Position numbers and translations under genes: made by a program | Notes under the pieces: model-generated | What the model saw: the letters and a program-made list of their open reading frames with translations, nothing else | Databases searched by the model: none | Told to the model about the DNA's origin: nothing | Shown: in pieces, positions 39,817 through 54,040 of the stretch | Layout: each line of letters starts with the position of its first letter | How positions within the stretch are numbered: the first letter of the stretch is position 1 | NCBI GenBank assembly: GCA_025677605.1 | Contig: GCA_025677605.1_4110.1 | Length of the DNA stretch: 64,000 nucleotides | Strand: one strand, 5' to 3' | Source: a phage

Positions 39817-40034
39817 ACCTCTTGTTTTTCTACATATCCTTTACCATCACAATCTGGACATGCATAATATCGACGAAATTCTTCATCGGGAACTTGTTGT
39901 GTTCCGTTACATTTAGGACAAATGCGACGAACACCAGAAATAATACGTTCATGATGCTCAGCTTGTTTAGCTGAATCAAAAATGCGACCATCTTCAGTTT
40001 GATATTTTTCAACCTGAACATAAATTACTTTCAT
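39807..40034 (-). CDS. zinc-ribbon protein
   Basis: 75 aa with CPKCNG ... CPDCDG paired CxxC motifs. Confidence 0.5.
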   Translation of the reverse strand: MKVIYVQVEKYQTEDGRIFDSAKQAEHHERIISGVRRICPKCNGTQQVPDEEFRRYYACPDCDGKGYVEKQEVWK

Positions 40035-40321
40035 TTTATATCCTTATAAAAAGTTAAATCTTCAGTGCTTAATTGTACAAAACATTTGTTAGTTTCATTG
40101 TCAACCAGAATTTCAACATACACCTTCACTTCATGAATTGTTACAATTCTATGAATCACACCAATAGTAGTTCCATCTATATATGGTAGCTCAACCCAAC
40201 GACCAACCAATTTATCACTTAAATGGTCTTTCATTTGTTGGTTGGTATCATTGATTATTGCATCGAGTGATTTTTTAAAAAAGTTAAATTCGGTTAATGC
40301 ACTATCAATCATGTCATGCAT
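40031..40321 (-). CDS. small protein, member of dispersed ~90-aa paralogue family
   Basis: 96 aa; K.LVGRWVEL motif at the family-typical position. Confidence 0.45.
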   Translation of the reverse strand: MHDMIDSALTEFNFFKKSLDAIINDTNQQMKDHLSDKLVGRWVELPYIDGTTIGVIHRIVTIHEVKVYVEILVDNETNKCFVQLSTEDLTFYKDIK

Positions 40322-40326
40322 AATAA

Positions 40327-41070
40327 TTACCTTTTGAATCGACTAAATGAATATTCGTCTTTTTCTTTACGCAAATAACGCATCTTACCACCTTGTGGGG
40401 TAGCAATAGTCAAATCACCAGTAAGAAACTGACTGTCAATCCAGATACGGTTACCATAAATGAGGGGATCAAACACGGCAGTATGCCCACTAAGTACATA
40501 ATCTACGTTGGTAATACGTGATGCATTAAAGACGTTGTTGGCTTTACAGAAATCAAATGTCTTTCTGTCCCATAGGCATGACTCAATTGTATCACTGGAC
40601 ATTGATTTTGTCCCAGTAATGAACTTATTCCAGTCAGTGTGCTTAAGGTCTACACTTGCATGTACGAGGCCAATCTTGAGTCCTCTGTGATTGATTTGGA
40701 TAATCATAGGTAGCTGGTTCAAGTACTGACGGAAGAATTCCACTCCTGATACACCAACTTCTTCCAGGAACTTATCGCCCCCATTCTGTGTCCAGCAATG
40801 ATACCAGTCACGATGAGTTGCAGAATCAATACACATCGATTCATGATTGCCCATGATCATATATCGATTCTCAGCGAATAAAAACTCAAACAAAAGGTGA
40901 GCACTTTGCTCACCTCTGTCAATTAAATCGCCTAAACTGAATACATAATCTTCAGGAGTAATACCAAATTCTTTCTTGGTATGTTCCCATAGTTTTGCAT
41001 TACCGTGAATGTCTCCTACTATATACAAATCTTTTTCATCAGGAACTGTTACTTCTAAGAAATGTTTCAT
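40327..41070 (-). CDS. Ser/Thr protein phosphatase (PPP-family metallophosphatase, lambda-phosphatase-like)
   Basis: GDIHG, GDLIDRG and GNHE motifs in canonical order. Confidence 0.75.
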   Translation of the reverse strand: MKHFLEVTVPDEKDLYIVGDIHGNAKLWEHTKKEFGITPEDYVFSLGDLIDRGEQSAHLLFEFLFAENRYMIMGNHESMCIDSATHRDWYHCWTQNGGDKFLEEVGVSGVEFFRQYLNQLPMIIQINHRGLKIGLVHASVDLKHTDWNKFITGTKSMSSDTIESCLWDRKTFDFCKANNVFNASRITNVDYVLSGHTAVFDPLIYGNRIWIDSQFLTGDLTIATPQGGKMRYLRKEKDEYSFSRFKR

Positions 41071-41321
41071 TGTTCTTTAATCCATATAATTTTATCATAG
41101 GTGACAACTTGAGTATTGGCAATTTGGTCATTAACATAGCAATCTACGTAATATCGCACATCACCATAATATGTTCCCATATCTCTTATGCATATTTTTT
41201 GCCAACCTCTGGAGTGTTTAAGAAGAATTTCTTGACCAATATATTTGTGCTTAGCACGTTGGACAAAATCATCAGATAACGATTGTAACATCTTTAACTG
41301 TTCAATTTCCGTCTTTGTCAT
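41067..41321 (-). CDS. small paralogue-family protein
   Basis: 84 aa; HKYIGQEILL motif. Confidence 0.45.
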   Translation of the reverse strand: MTKTEIEQLKMLQSLSDDFVQRAKHKYIGQEILLKHSRGWQKICIRDMGTYYGDVRYYVDCYVNDQIANTQVVTYDKIIWIKEQ

Positions 41322-41544
41322 GTTTCTTCTTCTTGAATTTTGTTAGTGTATCGTAAAAATCTTTACAGATTGAAATGAAAAGATACACCAACGACACAGG
41401 CCACAGTACTGATAACATAGAGCAGGTACTAATATTAATCATTGTGGTAGGGGTATCTTTAAAAGAACCCCAATTGATGATAAGAAAAGTACTGATAAAT
41501 GTACTCAGTACTCCTACACCATACAAAGCAAAAAATAAAATCAT
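41302..41544 (-). CDS. small membrane protein
   Basis: 80 aa, two hydrophobic segments. Confidence 0.45.
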   Translation of the reverse strand: MILFFALYGVGVLSTFISTFLIINWGSFKDTPTTMINISTCSMLSVLWPVSLVYLFISICKDFYDTLTKFKKKKHDKDGN

Positions 41545-41889
41545 TTATTCCTCTTCTATTAGTTCTAAACGATCTAAACGGTAAGTGAATCCGTACCATT
41601 CAGAACTTTTTGGATTTTCATATTCAACATCAACATAGATTGATGAATTCTTTACTCGCAACAAAGTAATAAACATAACTGTATTTTCGTTGATATGAGA
41701 AGCTTCATCATCACAATAAATCCAGTCAGAATCTACTTCATCCTCCTTAGCCTTATTGATGTGGTCAATATACTCTTGAGTGAATTTTACTTTTTTGCCT
41801 ATTAATTTATTTTTTAAGGTACTAACGAATTCTGATTGAAGATCAAGGAGAGATTCGAAGTACCTTAGTTCAGATGATAACGGAACCAT
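41545..41889 (-). CDS. small paralogue-family protein
   Basis: 114 aa; NKLIGKKVKF motif. Confidence 0.45.
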   Translation of the reverse strand: MVPLSSELRYFESLLDLQSEFVSTLKNKLIGKKVKFTQEYIDHINKAKEDEVDSDWIYCDDEASHINENTVMFITLLRVKNSSIYVDVEYENPKSSEWYGFTYRLDRLELIEEE

Positions 41890-42506
41890 TAATCACAGCT
41901 TCCTGAACTTGAGCTTGAACTATCACAAGAGCCACTGTCATAAGAGGAAGATGAGTCGCTATAGGATGAAGTACTGATAATTGCGGCAGTTGTTGCTGCT
42001 GTCAGTAGAACAGTGCTTGTACCATCATCAGTACTGGTAGTACTGGAAGATGCTTCCTTATCAGTTTTAGTGCTTTTGCGAGTTGTACTGGTTTTTTTGG
42101 TATTTTTAGTGCTAGTCTTGCGACCTTTTGTTTTCTTAGAAGTTTTTGCTTTTGTTTTAGTTGTTGATGCTTTTGGTTGTGGTTCTTCTTTTACTGGAAC
42201 TTCTTCAACTTCTTCCTGAACTGATTTAACTTCTTCAGCCGCACCATCAATGTAAACGTCATCAACAGTTAAAGTTGGCGTATATCCTTCAAAAACTGGT
42301 ACATCATGTACTGCTTTATCACGATTATCGTCAATGACTGGTGTCATGTCACGGCGACCCATAATAATTAGTAAACCTAGTTCTAGTACTGGCGTAAAAA
42401 TAATACCAAATACTGTGTATGCCAGTGCATTACGGTTGTAAGATTTTGCCAAAAACCAACCAATAACCAGACCAAGTACGTATAGTACGTATAGTGCATA
42501 AATCAT
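41889..42506 (-). CDS. membrane-anchored low-complexity protein
   Basis: 205 aa: N-terminal TM helices, Lys/Thr-rich basic tract and Ser/Cys-rich acidic tail (SSSYDSGSCDSSSSSSGSCD). Confidence 0.5.
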   Translation of the reverse strand: MIYALYVLYVLGLVIGWFLAKSYNRNALAYTVFGIIFTPVLELGLLIIMGRRDMTPVIDDNRDKAVHDVPVFEGYTPTLTVDDVYIDGAAEEVKSVQEEVEEVPVKEEPQPKASTTKTKAKTSKKTKGRKTSTKNTKKTSTTRKSTKTDKEASSSTTSTDDGTSTVLLTAATTAAIISTSSYSDSSSSYDSGSCDSSSSSSGSCD

Positions 42507-42802
42507 AGTATGACTCCTTTAATTACAATTATTTTACCGATATCTTCGATATAATTAGAAAAGTGATAGTTGTCTTGGTATATCAACCACGCACCAAACC
42601 CATCTACTATTTCGATTATATTAATTTCTTCAATTGGATTATTTTTACATTCAGCAACTAACGGACAAAAATAATCATTTAAAATTTGAAGATATATTTT
42701 ACTTACCTCTAACCATTCAGTTCTATTATAGTATTTGTCAAAAGTAAAAGTTTCCCACAGAAGTTTATATGTTTCTTCTGCTTCATATAATATTTTAATC
42801 AT
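42503..42802 (-). CDS. hypothetical protein
   Basis: 99 aa ORF. Confidence 0.45.
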   Translation of the reverse strand: MIKILYEAEETYKLLWETFTFDKYYNRTEWLEVSKIYLQILNDYFCPLVAECKNNPIEEINIIEIVDGFGAWLIYQDNYHFSNYIEDIGKIIVIKGVIL

Positions 42803-43101
42803 ATACTAATAATTTCGTTAGTGGATACTACTCTTCCGTACATCAATGGGATTACGTACACATTTGGAACCGAAATCCCCACTGATTTAATTGTATCACA
42901 TAGCTCATTATTTGTCCTGGCATTTTTGAACTTTATTTCTCTACCTTCAAATGCATCAATAACAGATTGTGAATATGAATCCATTAACACCCTGAAGTTA
43001 ATCATCATAGTTGGGTAGTCTAGTATCCCCTCAAGTCGCATATCATGGCACGTTCTGAATAGCATAATGTATGTTTTATGACAAAGTAATAGTTCATTCA
43101 T
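42799..43101 (-). CDS. hypothetical protein
   Basis: 100 aa ORF. Confidence 0.45.
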   Translation of the reverse strand: MNELLLCHKTYIMLFRTCHDMRLEGILDYPTMMINFRVLMDSYSQSVIDAFEGREIKFKNARTNNELCDTIKSVGISVPNVYVIPLMYGRVVSTNEIISI

Positions 43102-43415
43102 ATGAAAATCTCATCCAGATACAATGTAGTACTGGGTCTGTCTGTATTAACATCAGTACTGCAATCAATCATCAGACCGTAGTCAGTACCCCATATTTGC
43201 TTGATATAAAGGTCATAATCACGACTGGTATTTGCTTCATATACTACATTATTATAAAAAAGATCAGTCAATTCGTAATAGAAATCTTTAACACGTTTAT
43301 TCACCTCTTTTCTGTACATATCCATCTCAACGTTATCAATGTACAATAACCATTTCAGACAATAATTAAAATGATTCTCGTACATTATTAATTTATTATA
43401 TTCTTCTTGTGTCAT
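43098..43415 (-). CDS. hypothetical protein
   Basis: 105 aa ORF. Confidence 0.45.
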   Translation of the reverse strand: MTQEEYNKLIMYENHFNYCLKWLLYIDNVEMDMYRKEVNKRVKDFYYELTDLFYNNVVYEANTSRDYDLYIKQIWGTDYGLMIDCSTDVNTDRPSTTLYLDEIFI

Positions 43416-43735
43416 AGTTCAATCTCTTCTATGTACATACTATTTTCTATGTACGGATCAAATGGGTGTATTTTATAATCAACGAATATTCCATATCCTG
43501 TACCAAAAACACCATGAATATATACAATATCATCTTCGCACTTAATAGTTCTGTACTTAAATCTCTTTTCCAATGATTCATATATTTCACTAATTATACA
43601 GTTAATATAGTTATATAACTGATGGTTTGATTTAGTGCATTGTTCTTCAAGAAGTATATTATATAGAATCAGAAAGTATCTGTTTATATAATTCAAATAA
43701 TCTAATTCACTTTTTGTTATTAACGTGTTGGTCAT
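43412..43735 (-). CDS. hypothetical protein
   Basis: 107 aa ORF. Confidence 0.45.
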   Translation of the reverse strand: MTNTLITKSELDYLNYINRYFLILYNILLEEQCTKSNHQLYNYINCIISEIYESLEKRFKYRTIKCEDDIVYIHGVFGTGYGIFVDYKIHPFDPYIENSMYIEEIEL

Positions 43736-44123
43736 ATATAATCTCTATCTCATTTGAATCGTAATATGCTTTATGGGTTCTTGTTTTATTTTGGTATTTT
43801 ATTTTGGTTTTGATAAAATATATAACCTTTTTCCATTCATAATACACGTACTCAATTTTACCATAGTCACCAGTACTAAGTAATACTTTTTTACCTTTGT
43901 ACAGTTCTTGTAATTGTGTTTTATAATCCTCAAGAAATCTACTTTCAAAAATTTTTACATCACTTTCCATCACAAGGTCGATAAGAATAGCAAGATGCCT
44001 ATCCAATAATAGTAAGTTCTCTTGATCGTATTGCATAATATCTTTGTCCATTATCAGATTTTGCCGTATACATGTATGCCCCATAAGAATATGATATGTT
44101 GGTAATTTCAACTTCTCTTCCAA
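43707..44123 (-). CDS. hypothetical protein (start uncertain)
   Basis: 138 aa track ORF overlapping upstream ORF by ~125 nt; true start probably an internal Met. Confidence 0.35.
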   Translation of the reverse strand: MEEKLKLPTYHILMGHTCIRQNLIMDKDIMQYDQENLLLLDRHLAILIDLVMESDVKIFESRFLEDYKTQLQELYKGKKVLLSTGDYGKIEYVYYEWKKVIYFIKTKIKYQNKTRTHKAYYDSNEIEIIYDQHVNNKK

Positions 44124-44370
44124 GATATATAGCTTTTGTTCCTACGTATTTTTTAAGCAGTGGTGTAGTTAGATCAAGGAGATAGGTTTCAAGGAAATCG
44201 GAAATATCATAACATGGGTCTACTAATTGAGTATGAAAGAAACGACGAGTATCTCTTATCAATTTCACTTGCCTGTCATACAATTCTAATCTCGTCATAT
44301 GTTGCATCCCATAAAAAACCTGCTCGTTCGCACCTGTACAAAATATTACCATTCCAGGTCGCCACTTCAA
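43999..44370 (-). CDS. small paralogue-family protein (start uncertain)
   Basis: KKYVGTKAIYL motif; track start is TTG, probable internal ATG. Confidence 0.35.
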   Translation of the reverse strand: MKWRPGMVIFCTGANEQVFYGMQHMTRLELYDRQVKLIRDTRRFFHTQLVDPCYDISDFLETYLLDLTTPLLKKYVGTKAIYLGREVEITNISYSYGAYMYTAKSDNGQRYYAIRSRELTIIG

Positions 44371-44557
44371 TAATTGTCCATGTTAAATCGGTATCATCTA
44401 GAACATTGACACCAAAAACCACTTTTGATAATTCGTTCTCGTAATTATCCATCAGTACTGATAATGATGTTAGTAATCTTTCATCGGATTCTGAAAAATA
44501 TAAACTACGTAAAATACGATAATGATAATAAAAAAACTTCAATGAATCATTATTCAT
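44276..44557 (-). CDS. hypothetical protein
   Basis: 93 aa, ATG 44557. Confidence 0.45.
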   Translation of the reverse strand: MNNDSLKFFYYHYRILRSLYFSESDERLLTSLSVLMDNYENELSKVVFGVNVLDDTDLTWTIIEVATWNGNILYRCERAGFLWDATYDEIRIV

Positions 44558-44859
44558 GAAAAAATAAACCTCGAATATATTCTTGAGCGAAATGTTATAT
44601 TACTTGGGATATATTTGCAACAAAGGTATGGATATCCGTAAGTGCTGGATTCGATTTTGGTAATAATAACATCACTACCTCGATATTTGCACTGAACATT
44701 TGAGTATTTTTTATTCAAAAAGTCAAGATATTCATCATGAAAATGAATGAGTTGTTCTTCAAACTTGTATTGTTTTTCATTATACATTGCAAGAGATTCT
44801 TCTTTAAGAAGATATAATGTTTTCAATAATGCTTGGAATTCATTCGTATTCATATCCAT
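44554..44859 (-). CDS. hypothetical protein
   Basis: 101 aa ORF. Confidence 0.45.
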   Translation of the reverse strand: MDMNTNEFQALLKTLYLLKEESLAMYNEKQYKFEEQLIHFHDEYLDFLNKKYSNVQCKYRGSDVIITKIESSTYGYPYLCCKYIPSNITFRSRIYSRFIFS

Positions 44860-45106
44860 CCACAGTAGTTATTGTTGCTCGCGTTGTGAATTGGTATCTA
44901 TGCCCATACATATCAACGCCAGATACAACTATATTATTGTTAGTATCAAGATATACTGAATCAATTTTAATAATGCGTTCCCAGTCACTTGTATCATAGA
45001 CACATTTAACATATGTATCTTTATATTTTTCTGATAGTTGCTTTACTAAATTTTTCAGTACTTGAATATGTGAATTAACAAATTGGAAATCTATATTAAT
45101 ATTCAT
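44840..45106 (-). CDS. hypothetical protein
   Basis: 88 aa ORF. Confidence 0.45.
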   Translation of the reverse strand: MNINIDFQFVNSHIQVLKNLVKQLSEKYKDTYVKCVYDTSDWERIIKIDSVYLDTNNNIVVSGVDMYGHRYQFTTRATITTVDGYEYE

Positions 45107-45108: not shown

Positions 45109-45369
45109 TTATTCATCCGTTATAGATAATTCAGAGATAATTTTTACCATATGTTCACCCAAGAAATTGTTAGATCCAGTTAGGAATATTTTAGCTTTTA
45201 TTTTAATTTCATCACTAAGTGGAGAATAATAAATCTCTACAATTTGTCCACGTCTCCCAGTTGATAAACATGTAGCAATTTTGCCTATGTACTTGATTCG
45301 CAACTCTTCCATTAGGGAGTGCAAAACCAACTGACATTGTTTGAAATGTACATCATAACTATTATCCAT
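45109..45369 (-). CDS. small paralogue-family protein
   Basis: 86 aa; IKYIGKIATC motif. Confidence 0.45.
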   Translation of the reverse strand: MDNSYDVHFKQCQLVLHSLMEELRIKYIGKIATCLSTGRRGQIVEIYYSPLSDEIKIKAKIFLTGSNNFLGEHMVKIISELSITDE

Positions 45370-45393
45370 TATATCACCTAAATTAAAAGAAAA

Positions 45394-45411
45394 GGGATCA
45401 GTACTGATCCC
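45394..45411 (-). terminator. palindromic terminator hairpin centred on CAGTACTG
   Basis: perfect 18-nt palindrome gggatcagtactgatccc flanked by A-rich run; minus-strand U-rich tail; downstream of pseT. Confidence 0.5.
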
Positions 45412-45421
45412 TTTGTAATAA

Positions 45422-46354
45422 TCAAAATAGTCCAGGTTCCACCTGAAATACTTTCAAGCCTAGTAGCTTACGCCACATGAATACAACGGCGGCCCTGTCA
45501 TCAAATACTTTCTTAACATCGTAATGATTAACAACGTTATTCATATACAACTCGAATTTGACAACATCATCAGGACGTTTATCATCGATAGCTCGCATTA
45601 ACAATACATCGTAGGGAATGCCCCAATTCTTAAGCCACTGTTCAGTATCAGCACGACACCCTTCAGTACGCCCACTCATGACGATTACCTTACGCTTATG
45701 GAAAACAGCCTCAGCAATGACAGACAGAATTACTTCTTCATCTGGTGTATCCTGAAGGACAGTACTTTCATCAAACGGGTTACGTCCCCACTTATGAGCA
45801 AGAGTACCGTCGATATCAACAATGATAGCAGCTTCACGTGCATTACCATAGTAACCAATGTGTAATGCCTTTCTATAATAGTACGTATCTGCCATTGTGT
45901 CAATGATATCATATTGAACTGAACGCTCACGCTGGAGGTTATATTTCTTACAAAGTTTTACGAACTCTTTAATCTTAAAGAATTCATGAACATCTGCACC
46001 ACGGTCTTCATTAGGCACAAAATCATCATAGAAGTTCTTTTCTTTGTAATCATAACCATTATCTTTAGCCCAACGTTTCCATTCATCACGAAAACCTTGT
46101 TTCAGGTTCGTATCGGACACAATAATATTCCATCCATTCGCTGCTGCGGCGTTTGCTGCACTGAACTGTTGATTAGTTACGTACTTCTCGTTCGCATCAG
46201 TGAATTTATAAGCATCATGTGACCCAGCCATAGACTCTCGAATATCATCACGGTTGATGTTGATAGTCTTGGACTTTGCTTTTTTAATTTCTTGCACTGC
46301 CCACGTGGTTTTACCACATCCTGGCAATCCAACTGTTAGTGTAATAGTTGGCAT
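45422..46354 (-). CDS. pseT: polynucleotide 5-prime kinase / 3-prime phosphatase
   Basis: N-terminal P-loop GLPGCGKTT and C-terminal HAD-phosphatase motif IVDIDGTLA; 310 aa, near T4 Pnk size. Confidence 0.85.
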   Translation of the reverse strand: MPTITLTVGLPGCGKTTWAVQEIKKAKSKTININRDDIRESMAGSHDAYKFTDANEKYVTNQQFSAANAAAANGWNIIVSDTNLKQGFRDEWKRWAKDNGYDYKEKNFYDDFVPNEDRGADVHEFFKIKEFVKLCKKYNLQRERSVQYDIIDTMADTYYYRKALHIGYYGNAREAAIIVDIDGTLAHKWGRNPFDESTVLQDTPDEEVILSVIAEAVFHKRKVIVMSGRTEGCRADTEQWLKNWGIPYDVLLMRAIDDKRPDDVVKFELYMNNVVNHYDVKKVFDDRAAVVFMWRKLLGLKVFQVEPGLF

Positions 46355-46666
46355 TTAATCCTCAATAAATTTCACATTCTTTAGATTGTACCACGAAAAA
46401 CGTTCATGTCGTGTGTTGTGTCCTATAGTTACTTCTACATAGCACTCGTCAGAAATGTGATGAGTAACTACATGAAATTTAACATTAACATCACTAATGA
46501 TAGTTTCGAACCATGTTTTAGTGTTGTAATCCCAGCATTCAACTTTCTTACCAATGAGTGATTTCTTGTATTGTGTAATCATATCATGAACAATTTCAGA
46601 AATAGTATTAGTTAATTCAATTTCTGCATTCATTAAATTATTAAGTTCTTTTAATGCTTTATTCAT
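46355..46666 (-). CDS. small paralogue-family protein
   Basis: 103 aa; KKSLIGKKVECW motif. Confidence 0.45.
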   Translation of the reverse strand: MNKALKELNNLMNAEIELTNTISEIVHDMITQYKKSLIGKKVECWDYNTKTWFETIISDVNVKFHVVTHHISDECYVEVTIGHNTRHERFSWYNLKNVKFIED

Positions 46667-46920
46667 TAGATTACCTCAATAATATCATCAATTGAGATAC
46701 CAATACAATTATCGACAGTGATATTCAATGTAAAATCATCATCTACATATACATTAGTGATTTTACCATAAACATTCATCCCATCATAAGATGATTTATA
46801 ACGTACTCTTTTGTTAATATATTTTGCACGTAGAGTATTACTCTCACGGTACAATATATCCGTCAAACATTCTGATAGTACTTTATAATATAACAAATCA
46901 CTTGAATGATTGTTTTTCAT
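46666..46920 (-). CDS. small paralogue-family protein
   Basis: likely ATG 46920 (MKNNHSS...; track start is TTG); AKYINKRVRY motif. Confidence 0.45.
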   Translation of the reverse strand: MKNNHSSDLLYYKVLSECLTDILYRESNTLRAKYINKRVRYKSSYDGMNVYGKITNVYVDDDFTLNITVDNCIGISIDDIIEVI

Positions 46921-47134
46921 TGTATTTCCCAACTCCAAATCGCTTGGAGATTTTTACAAGTACAGCTTCATCACAACGAATACTAGCAGTGTCATTGGAT
47001 GAACTGTACTTTAAGGGGGTCCACTGTAATTGAGATTCTTCAAGGAACTTGATACATCTGAAGTAATCTTTCAGAGAAAGAAACTTAACCACTGACATAT
47101 CCTGAACAATACTATGCTGAACTTCAACTTTCAT
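46898..47134 (-). CDS. hypothetical protein
   Basis: 78 aa ORF. Confidence 0.4.
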   Translation of the reverse strand: MKVEVQHSIVQDMSVVKFLSLKDYFRCIKFLEESQLQWTPLKYSSSNDTASIRCDEAVLVKISKRFGVGKYNEKQSFK

Positions 47135-47143
47135 ATGAACTCC

Positions 47144-47401
47144 TTATAGTGGATCGAATTTATTTTCACGTTTTGATGTATAGCGAGTTACATCATGTAT
47201 TCTCGGCTTAACATCCTTTGGTTTCCTTTTCTTCTTATATTCAGTACTACTACACCCAAAAGTATTCTCGATTCGCTTCTTACTAATCTTCACACCTTTC
47301 ATTGAGCGTTTGTGCTGTAAATCATCGATTTCTTGTTGTATTTTCCTGAACTCAGTAGGAGAAAGGGAACCATCATTTTTATACTTAGGTTTAGCCATCA
47401 C
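47144..47401 (-). CDS. small basic protein
   Basis: 85 aa, Lys/Arg-rich. Confidence 0.45.
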   Translation of the reverse strand: MMAKPKYKNDGSLSPTEFRKIQQEIDDLQHKRSMKGVKISKKRIENTFGCSSTEYKKKRKPKDVKPRIHDVTRYTSKRENKFDPL

Positions 47402-47427
47402 TTCTCCTTGTGCTGGGCTAGTTAGTA

Positions 47428-48573
47428 CTAAAAATCCTTTAGTACATCTTTGTAGTACTTTAGTAAAGTCTCTTTATAATCGACACTTTTGCCATTGTAC
47501 AACGCAAAGGCCAAGCCTTGTCGGTTCAATACATTAGGTAAATCTTGCTGAACCTTTTGAGCGAATTCCTTTCGCTCTAAGTGCTTGTATGCATGGACGA
47601 AGCTTTCTACCTCATCTTGTAAAGCATTATAGCACGAAAATACCAATTGTTCCATTCTTAATATCTTATCCATAGCATATGTATCAGTACTGAACAATTG
47701 TTTTAAGTCATCACTTGCACCAGTCAGTACAGCTTCATATAAATGGGAATCAATAAGAATGGAATCTTTTGTTAAATGCAAAGAGCAATACCAGTCAGTT
47801 TTGATTTTGCACATTGTACCATCTTTCATTATACACACAAAACCTTCAATGTCAAGCATAGAACGTACTTTATCGATTGACTCTTTAAATGTAGGCATAA
47901 TCGGGAATGTATGATGAATGTCATTACCTGTCATATTAGTACTGTACTGTGAAAGGCATGGAAACTTATCACGTAGTGCTTTACCGCATAACAACTCACC
48001 ACTAATACGATGACGAACGTTAAGAACAAATAACTGTTCCACCTGATATGGTAACACAATTCGATACTCTGGGCTTGTGTATTCCAGATTCACAGTATAG
48101 CCCAAACGGTCTGCTTCATCAATGTATTGATAGAGATTTTGGTTCTCGTTCAAAAGTCGAGTACTGTTAATAGCATGGTCAGAAGATAACGAAGTGTGTG
48201 ATTTGCAACGGATTTCACCATCATTATCACGGAATGTGCTGATGATAGATCCATCTAGCTTAGGCATTACAACCGCAATATCATCACAGGTAGTATCAGC
48301 ACTGAACATTGTGTACGGGTTTTCATATGCATTGAAGAACTTTTTCATTGTACGTGCTGCACAACGAATCATAATTCCGTTGGAATCAATTTCCCACATA
48401 GAACCACGAGTTTCTAGTGCATTTTTATTTGTGAAATCGGTATAAGATGCCAGACGATAGGTGAATACACGGTATAAACCACCACCAGGGCTTGTGTGAT
48501 CTATATAGAAAAATGCATCATTAGATTCACATAGTTCCATTAAATCATTGTATATTTCTCGTAAATTACTCAT
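47428..48573 (-). CDS. rnlA: RNA ligase 1
   Basis: 381 aa; adenylation motif VMPKLDGS (KxDG); size and context match T4 RnlA. Confidence 0.85.
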   Translation of the reverse strand: MSNLREIYNDLMELCESNDAFFYIDHTSPGGGLYRVFTYRLASYTDFTNKNALETRGSMWEIDSNGIMIRCAARTMKKFFNAYENPYTMFSADTTCDDIAVVMPKLDGSIISTFRDNDGEIRCKSHTSLSSDHAINSTRLLNENQNLYQYIDEADRLGYTVNLEYTSPEYRIVLPYQVEQLFVLNVRHRISGELLCGKALRDKFPCLSQYSTNMTGNDIHHTFPIMPTFKESIDKVRSMLDIEGFVCIMKDGTMCKIKTDWYCSLHLTKDSILIDSHLYEAVLTGASDDLKQLFSTDTYAMDKILRMEQLVFSCYNALQDEVESFVHAYKHLERKEFAQKVQQDLPNVLNRQGLAFALYNGKSVDYKETLLKYYKDVLKDF

Positions 48574-48833
48574 CTAATTACCTCTATATCTACATCTGTG
48601 CCATAGTAGGAAACGTAACCATTATCTGACTTACATTGAATTGATAACTCTGATTCATAGTATGTTACTTTGATCACTGTTAGAACTTTTTCTTCAATTT
48701 CTCCCGTTAAATAATCCATTTCACGAACACGAATGTTGGTTCCTTTTGGGAGTTCTTGTGCAATTTTATTAACAAGTTCAAAAGCAGCTTCTTCAAGTGT
48801 GTGCAACAATTGCAATCTATCTTGGATATTCAT
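48570..48833 (-). CDS. small paralogue-family protein
   Basis: likely ATG 48833 (MNIQDRL...) one base after stop of upstream gene; track start 48878. Confidence 0.45.
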   Translation of the reverse strand: MNIQDRLQLLHTLEEAAFELVNKIAQELPKGTNIRVREMDYLTGEIEEKVLTVIKVTYYESELSIQCKSDNGYVSYYGTDVDIEVIR

Positions 48834-48834
48834 A

Positions 48835-49524: not shown

Positions 49525-50099
49525 AATTCTATCCCCGTGTCGGTTAATTTTGCCCCGTCCATGTACCTGACAGTTATTTCAATACGACTCTCGGCACTCA
49601 ATTTCTGAAGCTCACTGTAGTACAATTTAAATTCTTCAAAAAACTCAAACGGTGGAATATCGAATAGAGTACTCATCTGGAAGTGCTCAGGTAAGCCAAA
49701 ATCTAATATATTAATCTTAGGAATAAGACCATCTGATGCTGCACCTTCAGGTGTACTGCTGTCTGCTATATAAAACATAGAATCACCATGACGCTGAATG
49801 ACGAATATACAATCATCTTCAGTTACATAAATTATATTTCCTAGGTATGGATCATTATCACACCACTCATCATGGACGAGTTCTTCAACTTGAAGTAAAT
49901 CTTTTATAATTCCCTGACCACTATCATCAACTCGAATATGTAAACCAGAATCATCTTTACTCAACCAGCGGTATCTTGAATCACATCCTGATTCCATAAA
50001 TGGATATTTTGAAAAATCCATGTCAGTACCGTTATAATACCAATTGTACCACTCGTTACGCATAGTAATCAGCTTAGTACTTAATTCTACAATATTCAT
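49521..50099 (-). CDS. hypothetical protein
   Basis: 192 aa ORF. Confidence 0.5.
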   Translation of the reverse strand: MNIVELSTKLITMRNEWYNWYYNGTDMDFSKYPFMESGCDSRYRWLSKDDSGLHIRVDDSGQGIIKDLLQVEELVHDEWCDNDPYLGNIIYVTEDDCIFVIQRHGDSMFYIADSSTPEGAASDGLIPKINILDFGLPEHFQMSTLFDIPPFEFFEEFKLYYSELQKLSAESRIEITVRYMDGAKLTDTGIEF

Positions 50100-50395
50100 T
50101 TTAGTTTTAACCTTTTAGCAACATATTCTCTTAATTTTCCATCTGGAAGTTCTACTACAAAATATGGATGATATGTTAGTCTCAGAGTAACCCTTTTTAT
50201 TACACCTCGGTCATATGATATGGGAATTCCATAGGGATCATCAATTTCAACCTCCTTACCATATAACATTGCATTGCATGTATAGGTGTATTGCGTGAGT
50301 ATACCGAGCATAGTACTAACGGAACCACCACTGCTCCATCTGGCAACATCAGCAAGCATTGTTATAGTACTACTAACTAATTGTATTTTGTCCAT
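50096..50395 (-). CDS. hypothetical protein
   Basis: 99 aa ORF. Confidence 0.45.
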   Translation of the reverse strand: MDKIQLVSSTITMLADVARWSSGGSVSTMLGILTQYTYTCNAMLYGKEVEIDDPYGIPISYDRGVIKRVTLRLTYHPYFVVELPDGKLREYVAKRLKLK

Positions 50396-50406: not shown

Positions 50407-50432
50407 AAAAAAGACCAGCAATCCATGCTGGC
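50407..50432 (-). terminator. rho-independent terminator
   Basis: stem ccagca/tgctgg with 6-nt loop followed on minus strand by U6. Confidence 0.5.
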
Positions 50433-50438
50433 CTGTAC

Positions 50439-50717
50439 TTATTTTAATTCTTTATACGTGTATATACCAACAGTATCATTGGAGAAAATAATATAAAAAT
50501 ACACACCATGTGTATCAAAATCAATTTCATCAATGATACCTGATTTATTCATTGATTTATGTGTAACTTCTTTATTAGTATAAAGTGGAATAAACTCAGA
50601 AGAAAAATCATCTATCATAGCCCTTATATCGTCTATGTATGGTTTATTTTTAATATACATATCACCATAAAGTTCTAAAAGATATTCATATGTCCACACA
50701 TCTCTTTGTAAATTCAT
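50439..50717 (-). CDS. hypothetical protein
   Basis: 92 aa ORF. Confidence 0.45.
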   Translation of the reverse strand: MNLQRDVWTYEYLLELYGDMYIKNKPYIDDIRAMIDDFSSEFIPLYTNKEVTHKSMNKSGIIDEIDFDTHGVYFYIIFSNDTVGIYTYKELK

Positions 50718-51454: not shown

Positions 51455-51512
51455 TCTACACGCTCCTTGTGTTAGTTATTATTCCATACCAACAATTATA
51501 TCACTACTTATA

Positions 51513-51815
51513 CTACTGTCCCGCTTTATAACAATAAAGATTCTCTAATTTGAAGTCCGCAAGGTCACATTCAGAACGTACTCGGTTCTTGTTCCAGTAC
51601 AAAATACGAATCCTTTCATAATCACGATAAACACTAATAATGCTTTTGTGCTTGGATTTATAGTATTCCTGCACAGTCACAAGATACACGGTCCTCAATA
51701 AAGACTTAATGGGATAGGGCATATTCTGTGCTGTAGTAATACTATAAATCATCTTCATTGTTTCAGCAATAAGTACTTCATTTGTTTGATTTGTCATTGA
51801 AATCCTTACATACAC
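51513..51815 (-). CDS. hypothetical protein
   Basis: 100 aa ORF. Confidence 0.45.
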   Translation of the reverse strand: MYVRISMTNQTNEVLIAETMKMIYSITTAQNMPYPIKSLLRTVYLVTVQEYYKSKHKSIISVYRDYERIRILYWNKNRVRSECDLADFKLENLYCYKAGQ

Positions 51816-51960
51816 TATGTAAAGTAAATCCTAAACCTACACCGACAATTGGAAATAGTAAATTGATATACCATGTATTCATTGTTGAAAATGAATAAGC
51901 ACCTGCAACTGTCAGTACTGCAAGAGAAAAAAGACTCCAGATAAAAAATAATGTTCTCAT
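51778..51960 (-). CDS. small membrane protein
   Basis: 60 aa, two hydrophobic helices. Confidence 0.4.
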   Translation of the reverse strand: MRTLFFIWSLFSLAVLTVAGAYSFSTMNTWYINLLFPIVGVGLGFTLHSVCKDFNDKSNK

Positions 51961-52247
51961 AAAAAGGTTACCTCATCGAATGAAAAGTTTAAGTACGTTG
52001 GTGAATTTTGGTCTAAACTATGAATAGTAATATGACCATTGAAATAAAAAGAAACATCCTCTGCTTGAAGTTTTGGATATTTTCTAGTACTGAAATATCT
52101 TCCTACTACTAAGTCAGAAAACATATTTCTGTATTCTTGTGATACGTTTTTGTATAGGTTATGTAGAGCACTTTCTTGTGAATCGAAAGTAATGGAATAA
52201 TCTTTCACCAATATAGCATATGTTTTCTGTATTAAAATGATATTCAT
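51957..52247 (-). CDS. tandem-array paralogue
   Basis: 96 aa; DLVVGRYFS motif; last unit of the tandem array. Confidence 0.45.
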   Translation of the reverse strand: MNIILIQKTYAILVKDYSITFDSQESALHNLYKNVSQEYRNMFSDLVVGRYFSTRKYPKLQAEDVSFYFNGHITIHSLDQNSPTYLNFSFDEVTFL

Positions 52248-52507
52248 AAATCACCTAATACCTCAAAAATTATTGTTATTGGGTATACTGGGTTATCAGA
52301 TGAAGTAACACATACTATTAGTACGTTTTTTCCAGGTGCTACATCCTTTACAGTGAAATTAATATTATTAAGAATCAGTGATTTACCAATATAATGTTCT
52401 TTCAAAGATTCTATAAAATAGTCCAGTACTGGATTATCTACACTATAGGATAACTCAGTACTGGCTATCATTTTATATGTATGAACTATTAGTTCAGCTT
52501 TAGTCAT
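52244..52507 (-). CDS. tandem-array paralogue
   Basis: probable ATG 52507 (MTKAEL...); EHYIGKSLIL motif; track ORF extended to 52630. Confidence 0.4.
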   Translation of the reverse strand: MTKAELIVHTYKMIASTELSYSVDNPVLDYFIESLKEHYIGKSLILNNINFTVKDVAPGKNVLIVCVTSSDNPVYPITIIFEVLGDL

Positions 52508-52700
52508 GTACACGCTCACAATTAAGGCAATAAATGCACTCAATGTCTGGTCGCCATGATTTATCAAAATCTTTGTGCTGTTCTTCAGTGTATTCCGCAT
52601 CATCATTGATGGGAAAGAAATCCCCAGCACCAGTGGCCCAGTCTGAATCTAAGCGGAAACGAGCTAATTGAGTACTGTTACAGTATGGACATTTATTCAA
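52500..52700 (-). CDS. zinc-ribbon protein
   Basis: 66 aa with CPYCN ... CLNCERV Cys pairs. Confidence 0.45.
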   Translation of the reverse strand: MNKCPYCNSTQLARFRLDSDWATGAGDFFPINDDAEYTEEQHKDFDKSWRPDIECIYCLNCERVHD

Positions 52701-52980
52701 AATTTATTCCTTCTAACTGATATACGTTTAATGAAAATGACCCACTATTATTATCGCATCTGAAACACAGTGTTAAAGAACCATTAAAACTAACGACATC
52801 AGTACAGGTACATTTTTCACCATTGGATATGATAGATTTTCCTATATATAAATCTCTTACTATAGTACGGTAATGTTGCCATAAAAAATAATACACACTT
52901 TCATAGTACTCATCTGTTACATATGACAAGTATAAGAAGCTATAAAATACTTGTATTTCCTTTAAGTTGTTTTTCATCAT
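52693..52980 (-). CDS. tandem-array paralogue
   Basis: 95 aa; DLYIGKSIIS motif. Confidence 0.45.
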   Translation of the reverse strand: MMKNNLKEIQVFYSFLYLSYVTDEYYESVYYFLWQHYRTIVRDLYIGKSIISNGEKCTCTDVVSFNGSLTLCFRCDNNSGSFSLNVYQLEGINFE

Positions 52981-53240
52981 TTAAAATCCAGTAAATTTAT
53001 ACCAATGAAGTCCCCGTCTCTGCGGTAGAATTCTAAACGCAACCTACCTCTATGACTTACTACATCAGTACAACGATAGTTTTTATTATTTCTACGTATT
53101 GGAAGTCCTATAAAATGATGTTGTATCTCAGATAGATAATTTGACCATATTTTATTACGTACTTCATAGTAGAAACCTAATTCGTTATTCATATCATCAT
53201 ATAAAAGTTGATATGTGAATTGTAAATCATGATAGTTCAT
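52977..53240 (-). CDS. tandem-array paralogue
   Basis: 87 aa; starts MNYHDLQFTYQ; HHFIGLPIRR motif. Confidence 0.5.
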   Translation of the reverse strand: MNYHDLQFTYQLLYDDMNNELGFYYEVRNKIWSNYLSEIQHHFIGLPIRRNNKNYRCTDVVSHRGRLRLEFYRRDGDFIGINLLDFK

Positions 53241-53512
53241 AGGTACTCCAAATCAACAAATCCGCTTTTCGACTCTTCATTGTTATAGTAAATTCCAACA
53301 AGACTTCCATTATAACTTTTAATTCTGATAATACGTACAGTCATGTCGTCAATCATATATTCTTTATCAACAAAAATCTCGTTAATCATTGCCAAATATT
53401 CACACCACAATGTAAGAAAAAAATCTCGTTCATCGTAAGTTAATATTCCTTCACCACGTTCATATTGTTCATGAAGAATTTTGTACGTGAATTGTAAATC
53501 CTTATAATTCAT
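53237..53512 (-). CDS. tandem-array paralogue
   Basis: ATG 53512 gives MNYKDLQFTYK like its neighbours; track ORF starts further upstream. Confidence 0.5.
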   Translation of the reverse strand: MNYKDLQFTYKILHEQYERGEGILTYDERDFFLTLWCEYLAMINEIFVDKEYMIDDMTVRIIRIKSYNGSLVGIYYNNEESKSGFVDLEYL

Positions 53513-53768
53513 AGATATAAATCTCATGTAATCCATCACTAGAATCTCTACCCCTGAAGCATAGATCCCCGTTGTAACTATCAACTTGAAATATTTTTAC
53601 TGTTTTACCTTCGTATTGAATTATAGTACCTATAAAATGTTCACGTAAAGATTTTATATAATCACTCCACAAACGATGATAAAATGCATTATCCATGCAG
53701 TTGTTATCAGCGTAACGATACATATAAAATGTTAGTTTATAGGTGAAATGTAAATCCTTATAATTCAT
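53502..53768 (-). CDS. tandem-array paralogue
   Basis: 88 aa; MNYKDLHFTYK; EHFIGTIIQY motif. Confidence 0.5.
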   Translation of the reverse strand: MNYKDLHFTYKLTFYMYRYADNNCMDNAFYHRLWSDYIKSLREHFIGTIIQYEGKTVKIFQVDSYNGDLCFRGRDSSDGLHEIYIYEL

Positions 53769-54040
53769 TATAATATCTCTAAATTTATAGATTGTTGTCC
53801 AATAATAGAATCAGTATAGAATAACACAATTTCACCACCTATACTATCAACGCGTGTTAGCTTACGCATTTCACCATCTATAAAGATTTCGTTAGCGTAA
53901 AAGTAATTTTGAATCATTGTAAAATATTCATTCCATATAATATAAACTGGATTTTTATAAATGATAGGATTATGTACTTTACTTTCAATATATGTTTTGT
54001 ATAAAGCTTTATATGTTCTATTCAGTACTCGATAATCCAT
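53768..54040 (-). CDS. tandem-array paralogue
   Basis: 90 aa; MDYRVLNRTYK. Confidence 0.5.
   Translation of the reverse strand: MDYRVLNRTYKALYKTYIESKVHNPIIYKNPVYIIWNEYFTMIQNYFYANEIFIDGEMRKLTRVDSIGGEIVLFYTDSIIGQQSINLEIL

What the first reader, a model, noticed from the sequence alone, without database searches (positions are those of the whole stretch)
40031..54040. Expanded family of ~90-aa paralogues, including a tandem array
At least 15 small ORFs share a K/H-Y/F-I-G-K/x motif about 25-45 residues from the N-terminus (HKYIGQEILL, NKLIGKKVKF, KKYVGTKAIYL, IKYIGKIATC, KKSLIGKKVECW, AKYINKRVRY, EHYIGKSLIL, DLYIGKSIIS, HHFIGLPIRR, EHFIGTIIQY). Six or seven lie head-to-tail at 51957-54040, several beginning MNYKDLQFTYK or MNYHDLQFTYQ. 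Such expansion points to gene duplication and diversification, as seen for anti-defence or host-takeover families.
Basis: seen in the sequence. Interest (0 to 1): 0.55.

Follow-up and report, generated by a model that had tools for sequence, protein, structure and literature searches.

The report
Expanded small helix–SH3-like phage protein family
A 14-kb stretch of this jumbo coliphage genome holds about 20 fast-diverging copies of one small, previously undescribed protein (a helical N-terminus on an SH3-like β-barrel), seven of them in a head-to-tail array; the family is real, its function is unknown, and its members are reasonable candidates for host-takeover or anti-defence screens.

Summary
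The window is an Asteriusvirus jumbo phage, 98.6% identical to Escherichia phage A4. Seven minus-strand genes at 51957-54040 form a clear paralogue array, interrupted by one unrelated, highly conserved Zn-ribbon gene at 52500-52700. Iterated profile searches were run against 2,144 real ORFs plus 4,288 decoys. They gave no hit among 1,259 ORFs from the rest of the genome and one decoy hit. These searches tie 12-13 scattered ORFs between 40031 and 50717 to the array, about 20 members in all, every one inside this 14 kb. AlphaFold (pLDDT 91.5) gives a two-helix hairpin followed by a four-stranded SH3/Tudor-like β-barrel. There is no match in Pfam, NCBIfam, PADLOC or PDB sequences, and PHROGs splits the ORFs into families of unknown function. 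The array subfamily has only about 15 relatives among 1.84 billion representative proteins. Members are mostly acidic, lack conserved catalytic residues and are absent from the phAPEC6 virion proteome. They are under purifying selection (dN/dS 0.19-0.38), yet are 30-45% identical between lineages whose neighbouring enzymes are 75-90% identical. Duplication and diversification are supported. An anti-defence or host-takeover role is plausible but untested. This is a new family of an ordinary kind.

The parts
53768..54040 (-). Array member 1 (90 aa), first gene after a terminator-like hairpin
   Evidence: Core HMM E 1e-23 to 1e-32; hhalign 98-100% to other core members; matches phrog_32291
53502..53768 (-). 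Array member 2 (88 aa), MNYKDLHFTYK..., EHFIGTIIQY; this is the protein modelled
   Evidence: AlphaFold2 pLDDT 91.5: H3-22, H27-45, E49-52, E55-65, E68-74, E80-84; blastp E 4e-11 to 53237
53237..53512 (-). Array member 3 (91 aa), MNYKDLQFTYK...; motif degenerated to IFVDK
   Evidence: Start corrected from 53584 with the A4 annotation; hhalign 100% to 53502 and 53768
52977..53240 (-). Array member 4 (87 aa), MNYHDLQFTYQ..., HHFIGLPIRR
   Evidence: blastp E 2e-9 to 53502; hhalign 99.9-100% to core members
52693..52980 (-). Array member 5 (95 aa), DLYIGKSIIS; 97% identical to its 121Q and G17 orthologues
52244..52507 (-). Array member 6 (87 aa), EHYIGKSLIL; divergent
   Evidence: hhalign 85-88% to 52693 and 52977; core HMM E 3e-24; start corrected from 52630
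51957..52247 (-). Array member 7 (96 aa), most divergent (DLVVGRYFS)
   Evidence: Core HMM E 3.5e-26; blastp 31% over 85 aa to 52693
52500..52700 (-). Not a member: 66-aa CxxC...CxxC Zn-ribbon gene embedded in the array
   Evidence: 85-100% identical across Asteriusviruses; present in K64-1 (gp587) and metagenome contig L011; never recruited by the family profiles
50439..50717 (-). Scattered member (92 aa)
   Evidence: hhalign 84.9% to the 41067 group and 41% to the core; its iterated search reaches the core and subfamily B with 0 decoys and 0 background hits
50096..50395 (-). Probable member (99 aa), MLYGKEVEI; weaker support
   Evidence: Recruited from the 50439 start; a likely positional counterpart, L011 7117-7428 (inferred from position and motif only), is hit by both the core and subfamily-B HMMs
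48570..48833 (-). Probable member (87 aa)
   Evidence: Recruited from the 41067 and 46355 starts; hhalign 48% to 41545 over 66 columns
46666..46920 (-). Scattered member (84 aa), AKYINKRVRY
   Evidence: Recruited from the 41067, 46355 and 50439 starts; hhalign 41% to 41545 and 39% to 50439
46355..46666 (-). Scattered member, subfamily B (103 aa), KKSLIGKKVECW
   Evidence: hhalign 75.5% to 41067; strict iterated search (inclusion 1e-4) joins 41067, 41545, 44840 and 46355
45109..45369 (-). Scattered member (86 aa), IKYIGKIATC
   Evidence: Its iterated search reaches 41067 and 43707; hhalign 32% over 72 columns to 41067
44840..45106 (-). Scattered member, subfamily B (88 aa); orthologues carry KYKGxRVxCW
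   Evidence: hhalign 62% to 41067 and 48% to 51957
44554..44853 (-). Probable member (99 aa), specific to the A4 lineage
   Evidence: Recruited from the core starts 53502 and 52977; hhalign 20% over 65 columns to the core, above all decoys
43999..44298 (-). Possible member (99 aa), KKYVGTKAIYL; not annotated in phage A4
   Evidence: Carries the motif; linked only through K64-1 ORF 11711 and weak hhalign hits to 44554 and 52244; fills an annotation gap in A4
43707..44036 (-). Probable member (109 aa), LYKGKKVLLSTGDYGKIEYV
   Evidence: Recruited from the 45109 start; hhalign 27% to 41067
41545..41889 (-). Scattered member, subfamily B (114 aa), NKLIGKKVKF
   Evidence: Its iterated search reaches 41067, 46355 and four core members; hhalign 63% to 41067 and 57% to 46355
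41067..41321 (-). Scattered member and hub of the network (84 aa), HKYIGQEILL
   Evidence: hhalign 66% to the core, 85% to 50439 and 76% to 46355; AlphaFold2 pLDDT 67: H3-27 followed by five strands
40031..40321 (-). Possible member (96 aa), SDKLVGRWVEL
   Evidence: Recruited from the 46355 and 50439 starts; several hhalign links at 9-26%, above all decoys
42503..44557 (-). Same-sized small ORFs not tied to the family by the iterated searches: 44276-44557, 43412-43735 and 43098-43415 (a pair of their own), 42799-43101 and 42503-42802. The span also contains the members 43707-44036 and 43999-44298, listed separately.
   Evidence: The iterated searches stay with their own orthologues; 43098 and 43412 match each other at hhalign 92.5%; 42799 has one hhalign link (45%) to 41067
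53197..53773 (+). 49-nt direct repeat at the 5' ends and junctions of three adjacent array genes (53197-53245, 53469-53517, 53725-53773)
   Evidence: 69-78% identity, spacing 272 and 256 nt
54059..54080 (-). Terminator-like hairpin immediately upstream of the array
   Evidence: a terminator is annotated at the same position in phage G17

Best explanation
Between the DNA-ligase/phosphatase end and the Dam-methylase end of a non-structural gene block, this Asteriusvirus genome carries one lineage-restricted multigene family. It has about 20 members of 84-114 aa within 14 kb, all on the minus strand. Shown: seven members form a tandem array made by duplication, and the others are interspersed with conserved enzymes (polynucleotide kinase, RNA ligase 1, Ser/Thr phosphatase). 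Shown for the array subfamily by a confident model: each protein is an N-terminal helical hairpin packed against a small four-stranded SH3/Tudor-like β-barrel. The scattered members appear to have one long helix followed by five strands, but that rests on a low-confidence model. The Y/F-I/V-G-K-x-V motif is the helix cap plus the first β-strand, so it is a structural signature and not an active site. The members are real coding genes under purifying selection. Between phage lineages they are either replaced or diverge to 30-45% identity while their neighbours stay at 75-90%. Inferred: the proteins are soluble, mostly acidic, non-virion and lack conserved catalytic residues. They therefore most likely act as small binding modules. 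A conserved scaffold would present a variable surface, and each paralogue would bind and modulate a different host (or rival-element) macromolecule during infection. That is a host-takeover or counter-defence repertoire. The binding targets, the timing of expression and any anti-defence activity are not shown.
Against: A direct profile-profile comparison of the merged array alignment with the merged subfamily-B alignment gives only 1.5% probability over 22 columns around the motif. The signal shared between subfamilies is concentrated in about 30-45 residues (last helix, motif, first strand). The model of 41067 is low-confidence (pLDDT 67), and its Foldseek search does not retrieve the array family. 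Individual hhalign probabilities for many scattered members are modest, 10-60%. Five same-sized ORFs remain unlinked. dN/dS is below 1 and only 1-2 times that of the neighbours, so an arms race is not demonstrated. There are no expression, interaction or phenotype data.
Confidence: 0.6

Rival explanations
1. Only the seven-gene array and a few small sub-clusters (41067/41545/46355/44840 and 43098/43412) are true paralogue groups. The other small ORFs are unrelated helix-plus-β proteins. On this view they share a short convergent helix-cap/β-strand junction motif and a similar size because of common constraints on small accessory phage proteins.
For: The merged-profile hhalign between the array and subfamily B gives 1.5% probability over 22 columns. 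The cross-subfamily signal is limited to about 30-45 residues. PHROGs places the ORFs in 17 separate families. A 9-11 residue CxxC motif alone gave 82% hhalign probability between two unrelated controls, which shows that a short motif can inflate the scores. The low-confidence 41067 model does not find the array family.
Against: There are no hits among 1,259 ORFs of the same genome, which include hundreds of other small hypothetical proteins, while 19-20 ORFs inside 14 kb are inter-linked from many independent starting points. Candidate-candidate pairs make up 36 of the 39 above-decoy hhalign pairs although they are only 45% of all pairs. Several links span 55-72 columns. Bridging sequences exist in L011 and K64-1. 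The order of secondary-structure elements and the position of the motif are the same in both models.
Confidence: 0.2
2. The family consists of small nucleic-acid-binding proteins, with KOW-, Tudor- or Sm-like barrels. They would work with the neighbouring RNA-repair and translation-rescue genes (polynucleotide kinase, RNA ligase 1, PTH2-like hydrolase), for example as RNA chaperones or specificity adaptors.
For: SH3/Tudor-like barrels are common RNA- and DNA-binding modules (established knowledge). The G-K-x-V...G-x-I-x-x-V pattern recalls a KOW hairpin (my reading of the consensus). The genes are interleaved with pnk and rnlA in every relative examined, including K64-1.
Confidence: 0.12
3. 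The family acts in competition between phages or in superinfection exclusion, against rival phages or mobile elements, rather than against host defences or host machinery.
For: The signature is the same as for the main explanation (hypervariable, accessory, non-virion), and nothing in the data discriminates between targets.
Against: There is no match to any PADLOC defence model. The genes show no membrane or periplasmic features of the kind typical of exclusion proteins (GRAVY negative in 22 of 25, no transmembrane segments seen).
Confidence: 0.05
4. The genes encode minor virion, decoration or assembly-chaperone proteins.
For: Small β-barrel proteins can decorate capsids or tails (general knowledge). 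Jumbo phages of this group carry many uncharacterised virion proteins (PMC7247149).
Against: None of phAPEC6 gp361c-gp386c, the homologous region, is among the 62 proteins found by mass spectrometry in virions. No virion protein lies between gp347 and gp549. The region is far from the structural modules.
Confidence: 0.03

Closest known systems
Blocks of small non-essential early or host-takeover genes in large lytic phages (T4 hyperplastic regions; Bacillus phage SPO1 host-takeover module) - from my own knowledge, not tested here
   Same: Dense runs of 60-120-aa genes on one strand, often overlapping by a few bases. They are non-virion, poorly conserved between relatives and interleaved with nucleic-acid-metabolism genes such as pseT and rnlA.
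   Different: Those blocks consist mostly of unrelated genes. Here about 20 genes appear to derive from one ancestral domain. No expression timing or host target is known for this family.
Tandem gene arrays reported in jumbo phages 121Q and G (Hua et al. 2017, PMC5646251; phAPEC6 paper PMC7247149)
   Same: Genome expansion of jumbo phages by tandem duplication, in the same phage group (121Q is an Asteriusvirus).
   Different: [quoted passage not shown] The family here is a different set of about 90-aa, highly diverged, non-virion genes. No paper read or searched here describes it.
SH3-like / Tudor-like small β-barrel folds (e.g. PDB 8jvz_B SH3, 6hq9_B ERCC6L2 Tudor)
PHROG families phrog_32291 and phrog_21004 (unknown function), and other singleton PHROGs
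   Same: Five array members match each of these two families (best E 2.5e-12 and 2.7e-11). The other ORFs match their own PHROGs of unknown function.
   Different: PHROGs does not unite them: 17 separate families are hit and none has an annotation.
Small SH3-like phage proteins such as DUF1653 and UBE2O-like SH3-C domain proteins (BFVD hits)
   Same: Weak structural similarity of the β-barrel half (Foldseek E 0.01-0.05, about 40-50 aligned columns).
   Different: These proteins lack the helical hairpin. There is no Pfam DUF1653 hit, and their function is also unknown.

Membership tests
Array subfamily (core paralogue family, phrog_32291/21004-like) | Full-length sequence similarity to the N-terminal MNYxDLQFTYK helix, the W..Y helix, the F/Y-I-G junction and the DV.S..G.L hairpin | tested here: met
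   Seven window ORFs score E 1e-24 to 1e-36 against the seed HMM. hhalign gives 98-100% among five members and 42-88% for 52244 and 51957. The search of 1.84 billion representatives gives 15 genuine hits, all 87-109 aa.
Proposed superfamily (array plus scattered ORFs) | Statistically supported sequence links between subfamilies that real unrelated proteins and decoys do not reach | tested here: met
   In the runs there were 0 hits among 1,259 same-genome background ORFs and 1 hit among 4,288 decoys, while 19-20 ORFs were inter-linked. 36 of the 39 above-decoy hhalign pairs are candidate-candidate.
Proposed superfamily (array plus scattered ORFs) | High-probability direct profile-profile match between the subfamilies | tested here: not met
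   A3 against A4 gives hhalign probability 1.5%, E 0.035, over 22 columns. The best group-level link between the array and a scattered group is 66%.
Proposed superfamily (array plus scattered ORFs) | Shared three-dimensional fold | tested here: inconclusive
   The array model is confident (pLDDT 91.5). The 41067 model has the same order of elements (helix, motif, then five strands) but pLDDT 67, and its Foldseek search gives no significant match. Only two predictions were allowed.
SH3-like / Tudor-like β-barrel fold | Small barrel of 4-5 antiparallel strands superposable on known SH3 or Tudor domains | tested here: met
KOW motif (Pfam PF00467) | Match to the KOW profile | tested here: not met
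   The Pfam scan of all 25 ORFs at E up to 1 lists no KOW hit. The resemblance of G-K-x-V...G-x-I-x-x-V to KOW is my reading of the consensus only.
Sm / Hfq-like | N-terminal helix plus five bent strands carrying Sm1/Sm2 motifs; Pfam LSM or Hfq match | tested here: not met
Known anti-phage defence proteins (PADLOC) | Match to a PADLOC model | tested here: not met
   Only two chance-level hits, E 0.017 and 0.024, each for a single member.
Known anti-defence proteins (anti-CRISPR, anti-restriction, anti-CBASS/Thoeris and similar) | Sequence or structural match to a characterised inhibitor; inhibition of a defence system | not testable with these tools
Virion structural proteins | Detection in purified particles | tested here: not met
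   The phAPEC6 homologous region, gp361c-gp386c, is absent from the virion proteome table (PMC7247149).

The most novel reading that the evidence does not exclude
The family is a cassette-like repertoire of scaffolded binders. A conserved helix-on-SH3 scaffold would carry hypervariable surfaces, and each paralogue would neutralise a different host immunity or housekeeping factor. The set would be reshuffled between Asteriusvirus and Alcyoneusvirus lineages by replacement at fixed genomic slots. That would make it a phage counterpart of a variable anti-immunity gene family, and the set might work together with the invariant Zn-ribbon protein embedded in the array.
Probability: 0.2. Interest if true: 0.75.

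Novelty: new member of a known kind. Interest (0 to 1): 0.42.

Why it matters
About 3% of this jumbo phage's genes (roughly 20 of the 596 annotated features in phage A4) appear to descend from one small domain that has no annotation anywhere. The domain is restricted to RaK2/121Q-like jumbo phages. Its slots in the genome are conserved, while their contents differ between lineages whose flanking enzymes are nearly identical. That pattern is typical of genes at the phage-host interface. The family therefore gives a compact, well-delimited list of candidates for anti-defence or host-takeover screens in therapeutic E. coli and Klebsiella jumbo phages. It also offers a clean case for studying how tandem duplication feeds jumbo-phage genome growth. 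If the proteins instead have a redundant housekeeping role, the finding is simply a tidy annotation of about 20 hypothetical genes.

Tried and rejected
1. Pfam, NCBIfam, PADLOC and PDB sequence searches of all 25 candidates or of the family profiles gave nothing significant.
2. PHROGs gave only families of unknown function.
3. tblastn of all candidates concatenated into one query found only 36 Asteriusvirus records.
5. Foldseek against afdb50 was unavailable.
7. The second structure prediction (41067) was low-confidence, and its BFVD search was uninformative.
8. Three strong-looking hits in the exhaustive search (P0026, P0029, P0031; 1,261-3,256 aa) are highly repetitive giant proteins whose weak per-repeat scores add up. 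I rejected them as artefacts.
9. My first hhalign run on converted Stockholm files was invalid because the rows had unequal lengths. I repeated it correctly.
10. Sigma-70 promoter-like sites are not enriched: 92 found against 91.5 expected. Expression timing therefore could not be inferred.
11. dN/dS gave no sign of positive selection. Comparisons between lineages are saturated at synonymous sites and could not be used.
12. Literature searches found no description of this family. The published 121Q tandem array is a different set of genes.
13. A virion role was considered and rejected.
14. Spurious ORFs were considered and rejected, because the genes have conserved orthologues and dN/dS well below 1.

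Full report
SOURCE AND CONTEXT

The window is 98.6% identical at the nucleotide level to Escherichia phage A4 (ON286972, 355.5 kb). A4 is an Asteriusvirus jumbo myovirus of the 121Q/PBECO4 group, and other members of the genus are about 86% identical over the conserved parts. The region 38-57 kb is an unbroken minus-strand block of non-structural genes (and 12-19 for the orthologues' names):
- a PTH2-like hydrolase (39397-39816)
- a DnaJ-like zinc-finger protein (39807-40034)
- a Ser/Thr phosphatase (40327-41070)
- polynucleotide kinase/phosphatase (45422-46354)
- RNA ligase 1 (47428-48573)
- a cytidylyltransferase-like protein (55254-55793)
- a Dam-type methyltransferase (55790-56311)

Between these enzymes lie about 30 genes of 60-140 aa.

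THE OBSERVATION

The block at 51957-54040 holds seven related genes. Two starts were corrected using the A4 annotation, giving 53237-53512 and 52244-52507. One unrelated 66-aa CxxC...CxxC gene sits inside the block at 52500-52700.

The seven genes are clearly homologous:
- Pairwise blastp gives E 1e-6 to 4e-11.
- A seed HMM scores the seven at E 1e-24 to 1e-36, and the next ORF reaches only 7e-4.
- Profile-profile probabilities are 98-100% among five members and 42-88% for the two divergent ones, 52244 and 51957.

The motif is also more than chance:
- [YFL][IV]G at residues 20-65 occurs in 10 of 25 candidates against 1.7 expected from shuffles. The stricter 5-mer occurs in 9 of 25 against 0.15 expected.
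- In a test without candidate selection, the 5-mer occurs in 7 of 33 region ORFs against 4 of 487 ORFs of the same size elsewhere in the window and genome (P=6e-7).

One correction applies. The literal motif is in about 10 ORFs, and '15 or more' is reached only through profile-based membership.

IS IT ONE FAMILY?

I collected orthologues from eight other Asteriusviruses, two metagenome contigs and the syntenic region of Klebsiella phage K64-1, which belongs to the genus Alcyoneusvirus.

Iterated HMM searches were run from 21 different starting ORFs. The database held 2,144 real ORFs, including all 1,259 ORFs from the remaining 292 kb of the A4 genome, plus 4,288 reversed or shuffled decoys. 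Inclusion was at E<1e-3. No background ORF was recruited in any run, and one decoy was recruited in one run. In an earlier version of the test, ten control small proteins from the same region never left their own orthologue groups.

The runs inter-link these ORFs:
- the seven array genes and 44554
- 41067, 41545, 46355, 44840, 46666, 48570, 40031, 50439, 50096, 45109 and 43707
- 43999, but only through a K64-1 ORF

That is 19-20 window ORFs. A stricter inclusion of 1e-4 defines a tight 'subfamily B' of 41067, 41545, 44840 and 46355.

An all-against-all hhalign of 31 orthologue-group profiles was calibrated with reversed profiles, whose highest score over 465 comparisons was 19.8. It gave 39 real pairs above every decoy:
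- 36 are candidate-candidate pairs, although such pairs are only 45% of all pairs.
- 2 involve ORF 51513-51797.
- 1 is a CxxC zinc-ribbon motif shared by two controls.

In that network 41067 is the hub: 85% to 50439, 76% to 46355, 66% to the array, 63% to 41545 and 62% to 44840.

Two ORFs of the divergent metagenome relative L011 (6797-7120 and 7117-7428) are hit by both the array profile and the strict subfamily-B profile over the same residues. Eleven K64-1 ORFs in syntenic slots also join the profiles. Family HMMs find nothing at E<0.1 anywhere else in the A4 genome, so all members lie between 40031 and 54040.

The evidence against must be stated plainly:
- A direct comparison of the merged array alignment with the merged subfamily-B alignment gives only 1.5% probability over 22 columns.
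- The shared signal is concentrated in the last helix, the motif and the first strand.
- Many individual links are of modest probability.
- 42503, 44276 and the 43098/43412 pair are not linked at all. The 43098/43412 pair is a clear two-member family of its own at 92.5%. 42799 has a single hhalign link.

I put the single-superfamily claim at about 0.8, and the seven-gene array at above 0.95.

WHAT THE PROTEINS LOOK LIKE

AlphaFold2 on 53502-53768 with a 25-sequence alignment gives pLDDT 91.5 and pTM 0.77. The model has helices at 3-22 and 27-45, followed by strands at 49-52, 55-65, 68-74 and 80-84. The F-I-G motif (residues 44-46) ends helix 2 and leads into strand 1, so it is a structural junction.

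Against predicted viral structures, the best matches are Asteriusvirus orthologues. There is also a full-length match to an uncharacterised 89-aa protein of Klebsiella phage RaK2 (TM 0.67, 16% identity), followed by many small SH3-like phage proteins.

The model of 41067 has the same order of elements: one long helix at 3-27, the motif at its end, then five strands. Its pLDDT is only 67, and its structure search is uninformative. The structural unity of the superfamily is therefore consistent with the data but not demonstrated.

The broad consensus is helix - y-i-G-k-x-V - about 8 residues - G-x-I-x-d-V - G-x-l-x-f-x-V. No polar residues are conserved. In the 25-sequence core alignment the only invariant residue is a tyrosine in helix 1.

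OTHER PROPERTIES

- The proteins are acidic: median pI 5.2, with 19 of 25 below 6.5 and 79% of 147 members below 6.5. GRAVY is negative in 22 of 25, and I saw no transmembrane segments.
- They are genuine genes under constraint. Pooled Nei-Gojobori dN/dS for family genes is 0.19-0.38 in five genome pairs, against 0.13-0.21 for neighbouring ORFs.
- Between lineages they diverge far more than their neighbours. Against the 121Q group, the enzymes are 75-90% identical. Non-family small proteins are 95-100% identical (47144, 46898 and the Zn ribbon 52500). Family members are typically 30-45% identical. Five ORFs have no detectable counterpart outside the A4 lineage: 44554, 44276, 43999, 43707 and 42799.
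- Three array members (52693, 52244, 51957) are 93-97% identical to those of 121Q and G17, while the four adjacent ones are 34-40% identical. This mosaic suggests slot-wise replacement.
- Clustering 147 members at 55% identity gives 53 types. Each Asteriusvirus genome carries 13-16 detectable members in conserved order.
- The number of array copies ranges from about 3-4 in K64-1 to 5 in JNE01 and Turkey5, and 7-8 in A4, 121Q and L011.
- A 49-nt direct repeat (69-78% identity) persists at the 5' ends of three adjacent array genes. This is a footprint of tandem duplication or gene conversion.
- The array subfamily is extremely narrow. There are 22 clusters among 5.8 billion proteins. Among 1.84 billion representatives read exhaustively there are 18 hits, of which three are repetitive-protein artefacts.
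- The homologous genes of phAPEC6 (gp361c-gp386c) are absent from its 62-protein virion proteome (PMC7247149).
- Terminator-like hairpins precede the array (54080-54059) and follow 50439 and the kinase gene. They coincide with terminators annotated in G17.
- Sigma-70-like promoter matches are not enriched, so expression timing is unknown.

MECHANISM

Shown: a duplicated, diversified family of small helix-plus-SH3-like proteins. They are non-virion, acidic, lack a conserved active site, and occupy fixed slots among RNA-repair, phosphatase and methylase genes.

Inferred: they are binding modules whose conserved core presents variable surfaces, each engaging a different host (or competitor) macromolecule. 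That is a host-takeover or counter-defence repertoire. This inference rests on analogy with accessory early-gene blocks of T4-like and SPO1-like phages (my own knowledge) and on the pattern of divergence. It does not rest on any functional test.

Rivals are given with probabilities in the report sections:
- several unrelated families that share a junction motif
- nucleic-acid-binding adaptors of the RNA-repair module, which the acidic charge and the lack of KOW/Sm profile matches disfavour
- competition between phages
- virion components, largely excluded

COMPARISON AND NOVELTY

No Pfam, NCBIfam, PADLOC or PDB sequence relative exists, and PHROGs lists the ORFs as 17 separate families of unknown function. 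[quoted passage not shown] I found no paper describing this family.

The phenomenon itself is familiar: lineage-specific expansion of small accessory genes in a large phage. The family and its particular helix-on-SH3 architecture are new. I rate it a new member of a known kind, of moderate interest.

LIMITS

- Only two structure predictions and three fold searches were available, and the AlphaFold-database library was not installed.
- The 'neighbour' class in the dN/dS comparison includes all gene-strand ORFs of at least 50 aa, so it may contain a few spurious ORFs.
- Membership of the weakest ORFs (40031, 43999, 48570, 50096, 44554) is provisional.

Noticed in passing
window 52500-52700 (-): A 66-aa CxxC...CxxC zinc-ribbon protein is embedded in the hypervariable array. 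It is itself 85-100% identical across Asteriusviruses and is present at the same slot in Klebsiella phage K64-1 (gp587, annotated 'TFIIS-like') and in metagenome contig L011. The contrast with its neighbours is striking, and it could be a constant partner or regulator of the variable genes.
   Followed up: partly
window 43999-44298 (-): A 99-aa ORF carrying the family motif (KKYVGTKAIYL) fills a 240-nt gap in the phage A4 annotation, between A4_436 and A4_437. It is probably a missed gene. It overlaps the 3' end of 44276-44557 by about 23 nt.
   Followed up: partly
window 43098-43415 and 43412-43735 (-): Two adjacent genes of 105 and 107 aa form a separate two-member paralogue pair (hhalign 92.5%; shared C-terminal G-T-D/G-Y-G-L/I-x-h-D motif). 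No test linked the pair to the main family.
   Followed up: partly
window 51513-51797 (-): A 94-aa ORF just downstream of the array was used as a control, yet it gave the only two candidate-control hhalign scores above all decoys (21.9% to 52244 over 52 columns, and 7.6% to 50096). It may be a degenerate family member.
   Followed up: partly
window 41302-41544 and 51778-51960 (-): Two small hydrophobic (membrane-type) proteins of 80 and 60 aa are weakly similar to each other (blastp E 0.056; hhalign 23% in the first run and 3.6% in the rerun with larger profiles). Each sits directly next to family genes.
   Followed up: no
window 41889-42506 (-): A 205-aa protein has N-terminal hydrophobic helices and a long Ser/Thr/Lys-rich low-complexity tail that ends in ...SSSSSSGSCD. 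It is poorly conserved between lineages (31-39% identity over part of its length).
   Followed up: no
window 54059-54080, 50412-50434, 45391-45414 (-): Three terminator-like hairpins on the coding strand divide the small-gene block into units. Two of them (54059-54080 and 45391-45414) coincide with terminators annotated in phage G17. No sigma-70-type promoter enrichment was found, so the phage's own promoter type remains unidentified.
   Followed up: partly
window 39397-41070, 45422-48573, 55254-56311 (-): The family is interleaved with a conserved RNA-repair and counter-defence-style gene set: a PTH2-like hydrolase, a DnaJ-like Zn-finger protein, a Ser/Thr phosphatase, polynucleotide kinase, RNA ligase 1, a cytidylyltransferase-like protein and a Dam methyltransferase. 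The gene order is kept in K64-1 (L020).
   Followed up: partly
L012 (phage A4 record 1-50000), e.g. 1143-4139 and 26365-31077: Outside the window, the A4 genome has further long runs of 60-80-aa hypothetical genes of very uniform size. These may be other paralogue families. None matches the family studied here.
   Followed up: no
L015 (phage A4 record 345902-354619): Seven consecutive genes of about 1.1-1.35 kb are all annotated 'putative DNA condensation protein'. This is another tandem array in the same genome, and its homologues are virion proteins in phAPEC6 (gp003-gp010, gp549, gp551).
   Followed up: no
L011 (metagenome contig SRR22590159_5892076, 9.3 kb) and L010 (920 bp): These are fragments of more divergent relatives. 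L011 has the same gene order, from Dam methylase through the array and the 245-aa gene to RNA ligase. L011 carries 7-8 array genes, and its ORFs bridge the array and scattered subfamilies.
   Followed up: partly
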